Positions 10,436 through 15,715 of a DNA stretch of 19,970 nucleotides are shown here, piece after piece. Origin of the DNA: a virus. Where the stretch lies: the UHGV virus genome UHGV-0369446; one strand, written 5' to 3'. Under the pieces are notes generated by a model. It did not search any database. It saw only the letters and a list, made by a program, of their open reading frames with translations, and was not told the DNA's origin. A program made the position numbers and the translations under genes. Position 1 is the first letter of the stretch. Each line of letters opens with the position of its first letter.

Positions 10436-10732
10436 TCAGAATTCCATCTGGATTTGTTCAGAACGCTCGGTTGCCGCCGGGCGTTTTTTATTGGTGAGTC
10501 CATCAAGCGCATACTTAAAAGCCCTGCTAATCGGACTGATGTCTGATGCCATTCCGAAAGCACACAAGACCGAAGCAATAAATCTCCAGTCCGTTCTGCT
10601 TATCTTCGATTCATGACAGCCAATCATCTTTGCCAGACCGCGCTGGGTAATAGCTGACAGATTGATAAGTAAATCTGTTTCTGCGCGATCAACGTCACGC
10701 TGTGATAGTTTGCTGTAACTTGTTCTTTCCAT
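10436..10732 (-). CDS. cII: CII-family transcriptional activator (chimeric: divergent N-terminal part, lambda-type C-terminal tail)
   Basis: 98-aa ORF. The last about 20 residues (LTNKKRPAATERSEQIQMEF) match lambda CII from memory. The rest has a helix-turn-helix-like segment (GLAKMIGCHESKISR) but differs from lambda CII. Confidence 0.8.
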   Translation of the reverse strand: MERTSYSKLSQRDVDRAETDLLINLSAITQRGLAKMIGCHESKISRTDWRFIASVLCAFGMASDISPISRAFKYALDGLTNKKRPAATERSEQIQMEF

Positions 10733-10816
10733 TTCTTAAGATTTCCAATAGTGAATAGTTAGTTGAAAGGTATGCGTGGAAACGCATATGGCCTTAGTTG
10801 GTCAGATATCTTGGAA

Positions 10817-10863
10817 CTCGCTTTTCAGCGACGTAGGACGAATGTCCGTTGTTACAAAGAGCG
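10817..10863 (-). promoter_or_regulatory. putative nutR (boxA + boxB)
   Basis: Minus-strand CGCTCTTTGTAACAACG (boxA-like) followed about 17 nt later by UCGCUGAAAAGCGA (4-bp stem, loop UGAAAA), between cro and cII. It pairs with the similar site upstream of N. Confidence 0.5.
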
Positions 10864-10873
10864 GATCCGCTTA

Positions 10874-11089
10874 TTAAGCGGCTTTGTGTTCCGGCGGGAA
10901 CACGTCATCAAGACTGACTTTTGCGCCTAACTTGTTTAGGCACGCAACAAGAGCACGGCATGTTTTAAGGTCTGGGAAGCGACGACCAGATTCCCAATGT
11001 CCGATAGCTCCCTGTGTGCATCCAACTGCCTTAGCAAGTGTTGTTTGAGAGATATTCAGTGACTCTCGATATTTTCGTAGGTTGCTCAT
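10874..11089 (-). CDS. cro: Cro-like repressor (helix-turn-helix)
   Basis: Trimmed to the internal Met, which has a GGAGGG Shine-Dalgarno 4 nt upstream. The 71-aa product MSNLRKYRESLNISQTTLAKAVGCTQGAIGHWESGRR has an HTH whose recognition helix (TQGAIGHW) is similar to that of the divergently encoded CI (TQGGIGHW). The long 128-aa form in the ORF track has an implausible hydrophobic leader. Confidence 0.75.
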   Translation of the reverse strand: MSNLRKYRESLNISQTTLAKAVGCTQGAIGHWESGRRFPDLKTCRALVACLNKLGAKVSLDDVFPPEHKAA

Positions 11090-11200: not shown

Positions 11201-11860
11201 ATGAAAATGAAATGGTATGAACTGGCTAGATCCAGAATGAAAGAGCTCGGCATAACTCAAGAGAAGTTAGCCGAAGAGCTAGGTATGACGCAGGGTGGGA
11301 TTGGACACTGGTTGCGCGGATCTCGTCATCCATCTCTTAGTGATATTGGTGTGGTGTTTAAATACCTTGGTATTGATAACATATCATTCAACCACGACGG
11401 GACATTTTCACCTGTTGGCGAATACTCATCGGCCCCAGTTAAAAAACAATATGAGTACCCTGTTTTTTCTCATGTTCAGGCTGGGATGTTCTCTCCAGAA
11501 CTCAGAACCTTTACCAAAGGCGATGCGGAGAGATTGGTAAGCACAACCAAAAAAGCCAGTGACTCTGCATTCTGGCTTGAGGTTGAAGGTAACTCAATGA
11601 CCGCACCAACAGGTTCCAAACCCAGCTTTCCTGACGGGATGTTAATTCTGGTTGACCCTGAGCAAGCTGTTGAGCCCGGCGATTTCTGCATAGCCAGACT
11701 TGGTGGTGATGAATTTACCTTCAAGAAACTGATCAGGGATAGCGGTCAGGTGTTTCTACAGCCACTAAACCCACAATACCCAATGATCCCATGCAATGAG
11801 AGTTGTTCCGTTGTGGGGAAAGTTATCGCCAGCCAATGGCCTGAAGAGACGTTTGGGTGA
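11201..11860 (+). CDS. cI: CI repressor (heteroimmune N-terminal HTH domain, lambda-type C-terminal S24/LexA-like autocleavage domain)
   Basis: From [26 protein letters not shown] to the C-terminus (..[12 protein letters not shown]) the sequence matches the lambda CI C-terminal domain from memory. The N-terminal domain differs from lambda CI. The start is either ATG 11201 or ATG 11207 (better spaced from the AAGGA Shine-Dalgarno). The ORF-track start at 11159 is probably too far upstream. Confidence 0.9.
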
Positions 11861-11899: not shown

Positions 11900-12457
11900 T
11901 TGGCAAAAATAGATGATTATCAGCCAAGCCAAGTAGAAGTTGATAAAGTACTTTATTGTAAAAAAATAGTTAACTTTTCTGGCGTTAAATGGAAACAGAA
12001 ACCAAGTCGCTCTGATATGTGGCTACAAGCCCATATCATCCCCTTGGATGAGGATTGTATACCTATACAAGGGCTAAAGTTTGAACTGAAATGGAAACCA
12101 GATCAGGATTCAGAACCTGATGACCCGATTTCTTACCCTAAAATAAATATTATTGCTTTCTATCATAACAAGAGGGTTTTCGCGGTAGATACCTATCACT
12201 TTGACAAACACACGAATAGTTACAAGGTCGATCATCCGAAGTACCAAGATATCATTTACGGTGCTCACTACCATGTATACTATGAAGAAGCTGGATACTA
12301 TAGTGATAGAATAGCGTTTCCAATCGAAGATGACATAAACCCAGATGACCTGGTAGGGTATTGGAATTACTTCTGTAAACATCTGAACATAACTTACTCT
12401 GGGAGAATACCTTTACCGCTTGAAGATGAGTCGGGGCAAATGGGGTTTGGAATATGA
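11900..12457 (+). CDS. hypothetical protein A (185 aa) of a two-gene operon in the rexA position; function unknown
   Basis: ORF beginning 40 nt after the cI stop. The only in-frame start before codon 40 is TTG at 11900 (in-frame TAA at 11894..11896). AT-rich composition; acidic, Tyr/His-rich product (YGAHYHVYYEEAGYY); no hydrophobic segments. Its stop overlaps the start of gene B (ATGA). Confidence 0.6.
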   Translation: MAKIDDYQPSQVEVDKVLYCKKIVNFSGVKWKQKPSRSDMWLQAHIIPLDEDCIPIQGLKFELKWKPDQDSEPDDPISYPKINIIAFYHNKRVFAVDTYHFDKHTNSYKVDHPKYQDIIYGAHYHVYYEEAGYYSDRIAFPIEDDINPDDLVGYWNYFCKHLNITYSGRIPLPLEDESGQMGFGI

Positions 12458-13206
12458 TGTGCTCAACAGTGATCTCACAACTAGGTTTCGAATGCCATCC
12501 AATAGGCAAGACCTTGAGAATTATCAGTCCATTCACTTACTGTGATGATGGAGAGCATGTCGGTGCCTTTATCCGTGAAGTCAATGGTAGGTATTTAGTT
12601 AGTGACAGATGCGATGCCTTAATGAATATGGAGGCAAGAGGGATCTCGCTTACCAAAAAACGACTTGATGAGATACGACAATTACTGCTTAAAGAAGGCG
12701 CAGAACTCAATGCTCGAGGAGAAATCATTGCTTGGGCAACAGAAAAGGATGTCGGTGCGATTACATCGAACATAATTAGAGCTGGTATACTCGCATCAAC
12801 TTTGTCGTTAGACTGGTATCAGCCAGTTCAAGCTGAAAAGTTTGAAAGTATGGTTATTGATTATCTATATCACACAGAGCTTAGAGACGCACTTTCTCTT
12901 CGTGAAAACGTATATGGCTTGAGTGGACATCAAATTACCGTCCCTGTAACAATAAAAACCGACATACCTAAATACGTTTTTACATCAAGCGTGAAACACG
13001 GAGGAAGCTGGAATAGTGCTTACTCATTGCTTGGGAAACTAATTGATCTTAAAGCTTCAAGTGAGGAGTATAACAACAGATTTGTTGTTATAGACAGCGA
13101 AGCAATTGGTGATCAAATGCAACAACTCTCCTTACTCTTCCATGAATCAAGCCAAGTTCTACCATTCTCCAAAAGAGAGACTTGGGTTAAGAGACTTGCA
13201 GCATAA
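12454..13206 (+). CDS. hypothetical protein B (250 aa) of a two-gene operon in the rexB position; function unknown
   Basis: ORF starting ATGATG and overlapping the gene A stop. AT-rich. No membrane-spanning segments evident, unlike RexB. Followed directly by a strong intrinsic terminator. Confidence 0.65.
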   Translation: MMCSTVISQLGFECHPIGKTLRIISPFTYCDDGEHVGAFIREVNGRYLVSDRCDALMNMEARGISLTKKRLDEIRQLLLKEGAELNARGEIIAWATEKDVGAITSNIIRAGILASTLSLDWYQPVQAEKFESMVIDYLYHTELRDALSLRENVYGLSGHQITVPVTIKTDIPKYVFTSSVKHGGSWNSAYSLLGKLIDLKASSEEYNNRFVVIDSEAIGDQMQQLSLLFHESSQVLPFSKRETWVKRLAA

Positions 13207-13210
13207 TACA

Positions 13211-13238
13211 ACCCGGCCTCAGCGCCGGGTTTTCTTTG
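13211..13238 (+). terminator. intrinsic terminator ending the cI / rex-slot operon
   Basis: CCCGGC-CTCAGC-GCCGGG hairpin followed by TTTTCTTT, immediately after the gene B stop. Confidence 0.75.
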
Positions 13239-13424: not shown

Positions 13425-13453
13425 TTGATCTTGTAAAGTACATATCGTACTAT
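13425..13453 (+). promoter_or_regulatory. putative pL promoter (with OL operators in the surrounding AT-rich region about 13380..13460)
   Basis: TTGATC (13425..13430), a 17-nt spacer, then TACTAT (13448..13453), oriented toward N. Flanking palindrome-like elements TACAACAAATTGTA and GTACATAT share half-sites with the OR region. Confidence 0.5.
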
Positions 13454-13498: not shown

Positions 13499-13546
13499 GG
13501 CTCTTTAAACAACGTCGACTCTCGACTACGTGGCTGAAAAGCCAGA
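13499..13546 (+). promoter_or_regulatory. putative nutL (boxA + boxB)
   Basis: GCTCTTTAAACAACG (boxA-like) followed about 16 nt later by TGGCTGAAAAGCCA (4-bp stem, loop TGAAAA), between pL and N. The stem differs from the nutR candidate by a compensatory base-pair change. Confidence 0.5.
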
Positions 13547-13642: not shown

Positions 13643-13915
13643 ATGTCCAGAAAAACAGAATTTAAAGGCACCGCAGCTTCTCGCCGTAGAGCTCGTCGCG
13701 CAAATCTGCAAAGTCAGGAGGCGATCAGCTCCGACAAGCTACACAGGCCAACCCCTTCACGAGTGGTCTTGCAATGCAAGCTCAAACCAGCAATGAGAGC
13801 AGAAGTGATAACTCTGACAACGTTGACCAGAAAATATGAAGGTTCAACTTGTCTTCCGAACGTAGCTCTTTACGCGGCAGGCTACCGGAAATCAAAACAA
13901 CTGACGGCGAGATGA
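13643..13915 (+). CDS. N: N-family antitermination protein
   Basis: Start placed at the ATG preceded by GGGAGG (MSRKTEFKGTAASRRRARRANLQSQ...). It has an N-terminal arginine-rich motif like N proteins and is the first gene after pL/nutL. The sequence differs from lambda N and resembles non-lambda N variants (phage 21 / P22 gp24 type) as far as I recall. Confidence 0.7.
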   Translation: MSRKTEFKGTAASRRRARRANLQSQEAISSDKLHRPTPSRVVLQCKLKPAMRAEVITLTTLTRKYEGSTCLPNVALYAAGYRKSKQLTAR

Positions 13916-15478: not shown

Positions 15479-15550
15479 GCGCGGCGTTACCGCATACCAA
15501 TTACGCTTCACTCGAGGCGTTTTTCGTTATGTATAAATAAGGAGCACACC

Positions 15551-15715
15551 ATGCAATATGCCATTGCAGGGTGGCCTGTTGCTGGCTGCCCTTCCGAATC
15601 TTTACTTGAACGAATCACCCGTAAATTACGTGACGGATGGAAACGCCTTATCGACATACTTAATCAGCCAGGAGTCCCAAAAAATGGATCAAACAATTAT
15701 GGCTATCCAGACTAA
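15551..15715 (+). CDS. cIII: CIII (inhibitor of FtsH, stabilises CII)
   Basis: Manual translation gives [54 protein letters not shown] (54 aa), matching lambda CIII from memory. Below the ORF-track cutoff and in a different frame from the listed 89-aa ORF. Confidence 0.85.
   Translation: MQYAIAGWPVAGCPSESLLERITRKLRDGWKRLIDILNQPGVPKNGSNNYGYPD

What the first reader, a model, noticed from the sequence alone, without database searches (positions are those of the whole stretch)
13499..13546. nutL and nutR candidates share a boxB with covarying stem bases
Upstream of N (plus strand) and between cro and cII (minus strand) there are two sites with the same architecture: a boxA-like GCTCTTT(A/G)..AACAACG, about 16 nt containing CTACGT, then a hairpin with identical loop TGAAAA. 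The stems differ by a compensatory change (TGGC/GCCA versus TCGC/GCGA), which preserves pairing and supports a functional RNA hairpin. Loop and stem differ from lambda boxB (GCCCT-GAAAA-AGGGC), in keeping with the non-lambda arginine-rich motif of this N protein. The second site is at 10817..10863.
Basis: seen in the sequence. Interest (0 to 1): 0.45.

Follow-up and report, generated by a model that had tools for sequence, protein, structure and literature searches.

The report
Known nutL/nutR antitermination sites, tetraloop boxB
The two sites are the N-utilisation (nut) sites of a common VT2-Sakai-type lambdoid prophage; identical sequences are already annotated as putative nut sites in GenBank, so the finding is correct but ordinary, and the one useful detail is that their boxB hairpin has a four-base GNRA loop.

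Summary
Observation confirmed, interpretation supported, not new. Both sites exist as described. nutL is at 13499-13544 (+), between pL and N. nutR is at 10863-10818 (-), between cro and cII. Each reads boxA, a short spacer hairpin, UACG, then boxB. The shared 19-nt core occurs twice against 0.01 expected.

nutL is identical, and nutR identical within the site, to features annotated "putative N-utilization leftward/rightward" in VT2-Sakai (AP000422). nutR is homologous to the nutR of H-19B, which has been studied experimentally.

Three corrections:
- boxB folds as a 5-bp stem closed by U-A with a GAAA tetraloop, not 4 bp with a TGAAAA loop.
- The "~16 nt with CTACGT" is a conserved spacer stem-loop of the kind I recall being called the "reducer" in H-19B.
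- The N arginine-rich motif (SRRRARRANLQSQ) is the most lambda-like of those compared, not un-lambda-like.

Comparative data add support. About 106 loci with the RRR-x-RRA-x-LQ motif carry GNRA tetraloops at both nut sites. About 35 H-19B-type loci carry GACAA pentaloops at both. None is mixed, although nutR lies across a mosaic immunity region. The two outer boxB pairs covary (U-A/C-G/A-U; G-C/C-G, and A-U in further loci).

In passing: a PICI-like island carries an array of nut modules of several specificities upstream of alpA.

The parts
13425..13453 (+). pL-type promoter (TTGATC, 17 nt, TACTAT). The transcript begins about 40 nt upstream of nutL with GTCAGCAGGACGC, like the lambda and P22 pL leaders.
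   Evidence: Read. Equivalent to the 'putative major leftward promoter' of VT2-Sakai and to the lambda and P22 leaders. The simple consensus scan did not pick it up.
13499..13512 (+). nutL boxA, GGCUCUUUAAACAA; close to the boxA consensus as I recall it (UGCUCUUUAACAA).
   Evidence: Conserved in 84 related nutL sites.
13514..13526 (+). nutL spacer stem-loop, GUCGA-CUC-UCGAC ('reducer'-type hairpin).
   Evidence: Forms in the minimum-energy fold. In relatives the stem is kept while the loop varies (CUC, ACAC, ACUC, AUC, GCAC).
13531..13544 (+). nutL boxB, UGGCU-GAAA-AGCCA: 5-bp stem, U-A closing pair, GNRA tetraloop, preceded by the invariant linker UACG (13527-13530).
13643..13915 (+). N antiterminator gene, 90 aa; arginine-rich motif GTAASRRRARRANLQSQ at residues 9-25; ribosome-binding site GGGAGGA upstream.
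   Evidence: Pfam N_peptide 1.5e-32; PHROG 271; 98.9% identical to VT2-Sakai N.
10849..10863 (-). nutR boxA, CGCUCUUUGUAACAA, starting 11 nt after the cro stop codon.
10836..10847 (-). nutR spacer stem-loop, GGAC-AUUC-GUCC; identical to the one in H-19B and 933W nutR.
   Evidence: Relatives show GGGC/GUCC and GGGC/GCCC (wobble, then compensated) and GGCC/GGCC.
10818..10831 (-). nutR boxB, UCGCU-GAAA-AGCGA, preceded by UACG (10832-10835).
   Evidence: The same 14 nt are annotated 'putative NutR - boxB' in epsilon34 EU570103.
10763..10788 (-). tR1-like region (hairpin AUGCGU-UUCC-ACGCAU) between nutR and cII; the first terminator that the N-modified polymerase would have to pass.
   Evidence: Corresponds to the 'putative rho dependent terminator for pR transcript' of VT2-Sakai. 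Sequence.
10874..11089 (-). cro (71 aa), upstream of nutR.
   Evidence: HTH_3 4.2e-12; annotated Cro in relatives.
10436..10732 (-). cII (98 aa), downstream of nutR and tR1.
   Evidence: Phage_CII 7e-34.

Best explanation
These are the nutL and nutR sites of a VT2-Sakai-type lambdoid prophage.

When RNA polymerase starting at pL or pR transcribes a site, the nascent RNA presents three elements: a near-consensus boxA, a short spacer hairpin that draws boxA and boxB close together, and boxB. boxB is a 5-bp stem closed by U-A and capped by a true GNRA tetraloop (GAAA).

The N-terminal arginine-rich helix of this phage's N protein (AASRRRARRANLQ) binds boxB. NusA joins, and NusB with S10 presumably binds boxA. 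The complex stays attached to the polymerase and carries it through tR1 and the downstream terminators, so the delayed-early genes are expressed.

Shown here: the sequence anatomy, the position, the folding, the identity to annotated sites, the stem covariation, and the strict pairing of loop type with arginine-rich-motif type.

Inferred from lambda, P22 and H-19B: binding by N, the roles of the Nus factors, and antitermination itself.
For: Position and orientation are right: each site lies in sense orientation in an early transcript, about 40 nt after pL and 11 nt after the cro stop.

A cognate N gene is present.

The sequences are identical to the annotated putative nutL and nutR of VT2-Sakai. 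nutR is homologous to H-19B nutR, differing in the loop (GAAA against GACAA) and in boxA. For H-19B nutR, footprinting showed two hairpins, with N and NusA protecting spacer and boxB, and arginine-rich-motif mutants lost antitermination (PMC3526286).

The core motif occurs twice against 0.01 expected.

Covariation: boxB cells are 100% paired; the two outer pairs change on both sides (UA/CG/AU; GC/CG); 0 of 500 shuffles reach the score; slid controls collapse. A further A-U type at pair 2 appears in other loci.

Loop type follows N type. About 106 loci with the RRR-x-RRA-x-[LV]Q motif have GNRA tetraloops at both sites. About 35 loci with RRRERLKAKAL have GACAA at both. None is mixed. nutR lies beside at least 9 different cro 3' ends, so this is not simple linkage.

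The features known to matter for lambda N binding (U-A closing pair, loop G1, purine at loop position 3, the arginine patch) are all kept (PMC12027372).
Against: No experiment on this particular N and nut pair was found in the accessible literature. The GenBank features are labelled 'putative'.

In isolation the minimum-energy fold of the 50-nt nutL pairs boxA with the 3' half of boxB (-14.3 kcal/mol) rather than forming the two local hairpins (-12.0). For nutR the two are nearly equal (-11.9 against -11.7).

As I recall from Chattopadhyay et al. 1995 and Legault et al. 1998 (not held in the library), lambda's extruded loop base was implicated in the NusA-dependent step. A tetraloop has no such base, so the lambda mechanism may not transfer in full.

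Hairpins with a GNRA loop are common by chance.

The co-segregation counts come from related and partly redundant contigs.
Confidence: 0.9

Rival explanations
1. The two hairpins are chance GNRA hairpins with no role. The resemblance only reflects shared ancestry of the pL and pR leaders.
For: 19 hairpins with a 5-bp stem and GNRA loop occur in the window against about 11 expected. The window itself offers only two sites.
Against: The extended 19-nt motif has an expectation of 0.01. Architecture and position are conserved with compensatory changes across many phages. Loop type tracks N type across a mosaic region.
Confidence: 0.02
2. The inverted repeats act at the DNA level, as palindromic binding sites for a dimeric DNA-binding protein, not as RNA hairpins.
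For: Compensatory changes preserve a DNA palindrome as well as an RNA stem.
Against: The outer pair takes three forms (U-A, C-G, A-U) and the second pair takes G-C, C-G or A-U. Only complementarity is conserved, not base identity. G-U wobble intermediates occur in the spacer stem and in Oslo boxB; these pair only in RNA. The asymmetric loop always has the same polarity relative to transcription. The operators of these phages are elsewhere.
Confidence: 0.03
3. They are nut sites, but boxA and boxB also form a mutually exclusive long-range helix (boxA GGCUCUUU with AAAAGCC). This would work as a switch controlling the availability of boxA and boxB, beyond the standard model.
For: That helix is in the minimum-energy fold at both sites. 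The base before boxA (G in nutL, C in nutR) matches the G/C difference in the boxB stem.
Against: The match is lost in natural variants: A-GCUCUUU in POCJ13 and U-GCUCUUU in several loci, with the boxB stem unchanged. The epsilon34-type nutL sites have no GCUCUUU at all yet keep boxB. Local hairpins should form first during transcription. The energy advantage is small.
Confidence: 0.05

Closest known systems
nutL and nutR of Stx2 phage VT2-Sakai (GenBank AP000422.1, 'putative N-utilization leftward/rightward'), and the same module in many Stx and non-Stx E. coli prophages
   Same: nutL is 100% identical. The nutR site is identical, with two flanking differences. N is 98.9% identical. Gene order is the same.
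   Different: Nothing of substance. The window comes from a lambda-like phage or prophage (ev207, ev017, PhiR57_1 type) with a different repressor region between cI and pL.
H-19B and 933W N with their nut sites (Neely & Friedman, Mol Microbiol 2000, PMID 11123680; Sen laboratory, PMC3526286)
   Same: nutR has the same spacer stem-loop (GGACAUUCGUCC), the same UACG linker, the same boxB stem (UCGCU/AGCGA) and the same downstream tR1 region. A spacer hairpin is present at both nut sites. The N C-terminus is shared (LPNVALYAAGYRKSKQLTAR).
   Different: The boxB loop is GACAA (five bases) in H-19B and GAAA (four bases) here. N is only about 41% identical, with a different arginine-rich motif (SRRRERLKAKALA). 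The H-19B boxA is degenerate (CGCUAUUUU; none in nutL) whereas here both are near consensus. The reported NusB and S10 independence of H-19B may therefore not apply; that report is recalled from the abstract and was not readable here.
Lambda N and boxB (GCCCU-GAAAA/GAAGA-AGGGC; GNRA-like pentaloop with the fourth base extruded)
   Same: 5-bp stem, U-A closing pair, loop G1, A3 and final A. The arginine-rich core RRRxRRAxxQxQ is shared at 8 of 14 positions, and the Ala two residues before the core is kept.
   Different: There is no extruded loop base. There is no Trp18 equivalent (Glu here) and Lys14 is replaced by Leu. The stem sequence differs. The spacer is a hairpin rather than a short single-stranded stretch. 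The rest of N is unrelated to lambda N and belongs to the P22 gp24 / H-19B family.
Salmonella phage epsilon34 N and nut (Villafane et al. 2008, PMC2629481; 'putative NutR - boxB' in EU570103)
   Same: Same tetraloop boxB class: nutR boxB is identical and nutL is CGGCU-GAAA-AGCCG. The arginine-rich motif is closely related (AAGRRRERRAALQ).
   Different: N is 120 aa with an H-19B-like middle region. nutL and nutR lack a canonical boxA. The authors predicted 'a novel BoxB specificity' from the protein alone.

Membership tests
Lambdoid N-utilisation (nut) site | One site in each early operon, in the sense strand of the transcript: promoter-proximal in the pL transcript upstream of N, and just downstream of cro in the pR transcript | tested here: met
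   nutL lies about 40 nt after pL and 99 nt before the N start. nutR starts 11 nt after the cro stop and lies upstream of tR1 and cII.
Lambdoid N-utilisation (nut) site | boxA (CGCUCUU(U)A-type) 5' of boxB | tested here: met
   GGCUCUUUAAACAA and CGCUCUUUGUAACAA. Compare lambda CGCUCUUA and P22 GCUCUUUAAC.
Lambdoid N-utilisation (nut) site | boxB: short hairpin with a purine-rich loop of GNRA fold | tested here: met
   5-bp stem with GAAA loop at both sites. 100% pairing, with two pairs covarying, in 15 distinct relatives.
Lambdoid N-utilisation (nut) site | Cognate N protein with an N-terminal arginine-rich motif whose type matches the boxB type | tested here: met
   PF25694 1.5e-32. Motif class and loop class co-segregate without exception in about 150 loci.
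Lambdoid N-utilisation (nut) site | N- and Nus-dependent read-through of downstream terminators | not testable with these tools
   Needs a reporter or in vitro transcription assay. Only the homologous H-19B nutR has such data (PMC3526286).
H-19B-type nut site (spacer 'reducer' stem-loop) | Dyad symmetry (stem-loop) in the spacer between boxA and boxB | tested here: met
   GUCGA-CUC-UCGAC and GGAC-AUUC-GUCC. A spacer hairpin ending at the C of CUACG was found at every one of about 320 related sites, in unrelated sequence families and with compensated variants.
H-19B-type nut site (spacer 'reducer' stem-loop) | boxB pentaloop GACAA recognised by the H-19B-type motif RSRRRER-LKAKAL | tested here: not met
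   The loop is GAAA and the motif is SRRRARRANLQ.
H-19B-type nut site (spacer 'reducer' stem-loop) | Degenerate or dispensable boxA, and independence from NusB and S10 | tested here: inconclusive
   Both boxA elements here are near consensus, unlike H-19B. That argues against dispensability, but factor dependence cannot be tested in silico.
Lambda-type boxB (GNRNA pentaloop) | Five-base loop with the fourth base extruded; Trp18 of N stacking on the loop | tested here: not met
   The loop has four bases, and the residue aligned with Trp18 is Glu. The U-A closing pair, G1 and purine-3 requirements (PMC12027372) are met.

The most novel reading that the evidence does not exclude
The GNRA-tetraloop boxB, together with the RRR-x-RRA-x-LQ arginine-rich motif, forms a separate natural N specificity class (VT2-Sakai, POCJ13 and epsilon34 types). 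In this class no loop base is extruded. A single-base loop insertion or deletion (GAAA against GACAA), on an otherwise identical nutR, would then be the switch that separates it from H-19B/933W-type N. The loop-base contribution to the NusA-dependent step described for lambda would be dispensable or replaced. Neither this class nor this switch was found described in the literature I could reach.
Probability: 0.55. Interest if true: 0.4.

Novelty: already known. Interest (0 to 1): 0.18.

Why it matters
For annotation, it places nutL, nutR and N in a module carried by about 14% of complete E. coli genomes (759 of 5,426, including Nissle 1917 and the type strain). RefSeq often labels N there as 'hypothetical protein'.

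For specialists, the modest point of interest is a natural boxB that is a true GNRA tetraloop, paired with a lambda-like arginine-rich motif that lacks the stacking tryptophan. It differs from the H-19B nutR essentially by one loop base. That makes a clean natural system for asking what sets N-boxB specificity and whether an extruded loop base is needed for the Nus-dependent step.

It does not change the understanding of antitermination.

Tried and rejected
- Rfam, gathering threshold: no family covers nut or boxB. The only hit in the window is the cIII thermoregulator.
- The consensus promoter scan missed pL and pR, and the terminator scan only flagged the spacer hairpin and unrelated hairpins.
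- Counting generic hairpins with a 5-bp stem and GNRA loop gave no significance (19 against about 11). The hairpin alone was therefore rejected as evidence.
- MAFFT on boxB sequences mixing tetraloops and pentaloops put the gap at the 3' end, so formal pair counting was limited to the tetraloop class.
- Two scripts had regex errors and were rerun.
- The genome-contig scan gave only 4 loci, two of them probable contaminants.
- One literature search was wasted on the prefix match 'nutr'.
- Neely & Friedman 2000, Cocozaki et al. 2008 and Thapar et al. 2014 are not held. What I say about the 'reducer', NusB independence and the role of the extruded base rests on memory of those papers.
- A boxA-to-boxB long-range helix was considered as a switch and judged unlikely, because natural variants break it.
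- A DNA-palindrome reading was rejected because of the pattern of base-pair types and the G-U intermediates.

Full report
**What is in the sequence.** The window is the early regulatory region of a lambdoid phage. It carries P, O, cII (10732-10436, -), cro (11089-10874, -), cI (11204-11860, +), two further ORFs, pL, N (13643-13915, +), sieB and a cIII thermoregulator.

- nutL (+): GGCTCTTTAAACAA (13499-13512), GTCGA-CTC-TCGAC (13514-13526), TACG, TGGCT-GAAA-AGCCA (13531-13544).
- nutR (-): CGCTCTTTGTAACAA (10863-10849), GGAC-ATTC-GTCC (10847-10836), TACG, TCGCT-GAAA-AGCGA (10831-10818).

Each lies in the sense strand of its early transcript. The 19-nt core CTACGTNGCTGAAAAGCNA occurs exactly twice, against 0.01 expected even with two mismatches allowed. 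A hairpin with a 5-bp stem and GNRA loop is not unusual by itself: 19 in the window against about 11 expected. The evidence is therefore the extended motif and its placement.

**Structure.** Folding gives a 5-bp stem closed by U-A with a GAAA tetraloop at both sites (-7.1 and -6.7 kcal/mol; z = -3.1 and -2.2). A second small hairpin forms in the spacer.

In isolation, a competing fold that pairs boxA with the 3' half of boxB is slightly more stable at nutL (-14.3 against -12.0 kcal/mol) and equal at nutR. Natural variants do not preserve that pairing, so I treat it as incidental.

**It is already annotated.** The N-nutL segment is 100% identical to several phage genomes and 94-95% identical to many Stx phages. 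In VT2-Sakai (AP000422.1) the very same nutL sequence is annotated "putative N-utilization leftward". The same nutR sequence is annotated "putative N-utilization rightward", followed by a "putative rho dependent terminator". The nutR boxB is also annotated in epsilon34. The N protein is 98.9% identical to VT2-Sakai N. The nutL-N module is present, at 80% coverage or more, in 759 of 5,426 complete E. coli genomes.

**Relation to characterised systems.** H-19B and 933W N are only about 41% identical to this N. Their nutR nevertheless has the same spacer hairpin, UACG linker, boxB stem and downstream region, and differs in the loop (GACAA against GAAA) and in boxA. [quoted passage not shown]

The spacer hairpin is the feature I recall Neely & Friedman (2000, PMID 11123680) naming the "reducer". 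That paper could not be read here, so the name and its reported properties are from memory.

Lambda boxB (GCCCU-GAAAA/GAAGA-AGGGC) shares with the present boxB the U-A closing pair, G1, A3 and the last A. These are the features reported to matter for lambda N binding (PMC12027372). The arginine-rich core here (SRRRARRANLQSQE) matches lambda (TRRRERRAEKQAQW) at 8 of 14 positions, and matches H-19B and P22 at only 5 of 14. It lacks the Trp18 equivalent. The pair therefore looks like a lambda-type recognition module without the extruded loop base, set in a P22/H-19B-family N protein.

**Comparative test.** I collected about 290 loci in three ways: with this N, with epsilon34 N and with a DNA pattern for the boxB core. 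Twelve reference phage regions were added.
- Motifs of the form [ST][AS]A[SGA]RRR[AED][RH]RAx[LV]Q always come with GNRA tetraloops (GAAA, sometimes GCAA) at nutL and nutR: about 106 loci with both sites read.
- Motifs of the H-19B form (RRRERLK[AV][KQ]A) always come with GACAA: about 35 loci, plus 8 Oslo-type loci with GACAA at nutR.
- No mixed case was seen.

nutL is adjacent to N, so linkage explains that half. nutR, however, lies 2.5-3 kb away across the mosaic immunity region and sits beside at least 9 different cro 3' ends. The match there argues for functional coupling.

Within the tetraloop class every boxB cell is paired. The outermost pair is U-A, C-G or A-U. The second pair is G-C or C-G, and also A-U in loci. 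The three inner pairs and the loop are fixed. No shuffle of 500 reaches the covariation score, and slid controls collapse.

A spacer hairpin ending exactly at the C of CUACG was found at every one of about 320 sites. It occurs in three unrelated sequence families plus a fourth. Loops vary, and stems show compensated changes: GGAC/GUCC to GGGC/GUCC to GGGC/GCCC, and GGCC/GGCC.

**Mechanism and confidence.** These are the phage's nut sites (confidence 0.9). N binds the tetraloop boxB through its arginine-rich helix. NusA, and via the near-consensus boxA probably NusB with S10, join the complex. The modified polymerase then reads through tR1 and later terminators. Binding and antitermination are inferred from homologues, not shown for this pair. 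No experiment on VT2-Sakai-type N was found. Villafane et al. only predicted a "novel BoxB specificity" for epsilon34, from the protein (PMC2629481).

**Novelty.** The finding as stated is already known, because the same features are annotated on identical sequence. What the analysis adds is the correct structural reading and the tetraloop-with-motif specificity class.

**Noticed in passing.** In E. coli CP131_Sichuan, an island with a P4-type integrase and primase sits at tRNA-Thr. Between int and an alpA gene (PF05930, 7e-20) it carries an array of nut-like modules of several specificities:
- a complete tetraloop-class module;
- two P22/H-19B-type GACAA boxBs, one within a full H-19B-type nutL;
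- the exact lambda nutR boxB;
- an mEpX2-type boxB.

Fillol-Salom et al. 2018 showed that helper phages lambda and phi80 switch on alpA of an E. coli PICI, and stated that the phage-encoded inducer was still under study (PMC6092414). The array suggests that N proteins of diverse helpers could be that signal. I could not check whether this has since been published. The array also supports the tetraloop module indirectly, since it sits alongside validated lambda and P22/H-19B boxB sequences as an equivalent unit.

Noticed in passing
L299 6020-6400 (+) (E. coli CP131_Sichuan NZ_CP053720.1); also L278 1505-1725: A PICI/P4-like island at tRNA-Thr (integrase, alpA, AntA/B, Icd-like, P4-family primase) has an array of nut-like modules of different N specificities between int and alpA. 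It contains boxA + hairpin + UACG + CAGCU-GAAA-AGCUG (tetraloop class); two GCGCU-GACAA-AGCGC (P22/H-19B class, one within a full H-19B-type nutL); GCCCU-GAAAA-AGGGC (the exact lambda nutR boxB); and CCUGCC-GAAAU-GCAGG (mEpX2 type). A terminator-like hairpin follows before alpA. This suggests the island senses any lambdoid helper through N-dependent read-through into alpA, whose phage-encoded inducer was unknown in 2018 (PMC6092414). Present in 43 of 5,426 complete E. coli genomes. Whether this is already published could not be checked.
   Followed up: partly
window 11900-13206 (+): The two ORFs between cI and pL, in the position of lambda rexAB, are PHROG 2017 and 1960 (unknown function; weak DUF6978 match below threshold, and DUF1828). 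They match the PADLOC candidate defence system PDC-M24 (A: E 4.8e-4; B: 4.7e-10), so they are a possible prophage-expressed defence moron.
   Followed up: partly
window 13499-13544 and 10863-10818: The minimum-energy fold of each isolated nut RNA pairs boxA (GGCUCUUU / CGCUCUUU) with the 3' half of boxB (AAAAGCC / AAAAGCG). The base before boxA differs between the sites (G/C) in step with the boxB stem. Natural variants break the match, so it is probably incidental.
   Followed up: partly
window 15538-15596 (+): Rfam Lambda_thermo (cIII thermoregulator), 88.5 bits, E 9e-21. This is the only Rfam family hit in the window.
   Followed up: no
window 10867-10881: A perfect small palindrome, CCGCTTATTAAGCGG, spans the cro stop codon immediately upstream of nutR boxA. 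It is present only with this cro allele (contexts). Function unknown.
   Followed up: no
window 13210-13231 (+) and 10460-10487 (+): Two strong intrinsic-terminator-like hairpins. One ends the cI operon just before pL. The other lies antisense within the 3' end of cII, in the position of the lambda oop terminator.
   Followed up: no
L005 and L008 (Segatella copri MAG JAJXBQ01); L006 (Xanthomonas pisi contig, 394 nt): Enterobacterial lambdoid N genes and nut sites appear in assemblies labelled Segatella copri and Xanthomonas pisi. This is most likely mis-binning or contamination.
   Followed up: no
H131-H135 (E. coli ATCC 11775, Nissle 1917 and others): In RefSeq complete E. coli genomes the identical N gene is annotated only as 'hypothetical protein', and no nut features are annotated.
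   Followed up: no
L092 and L095 (Salmonella phages Oslo, 103203_sal5), upstream of N: With an H-19B-like motif (TSRARRRERLKAKAL), nutL has an atypical boxB, GCUC-CGUCAAC-GAGC (4-bp stem, 7-nt loop), while nutR is UCGCU-GACAA-GGCGA with a U-G closing pair. This may be a further specificity variant or a decaying nutL.
   Followed up: no
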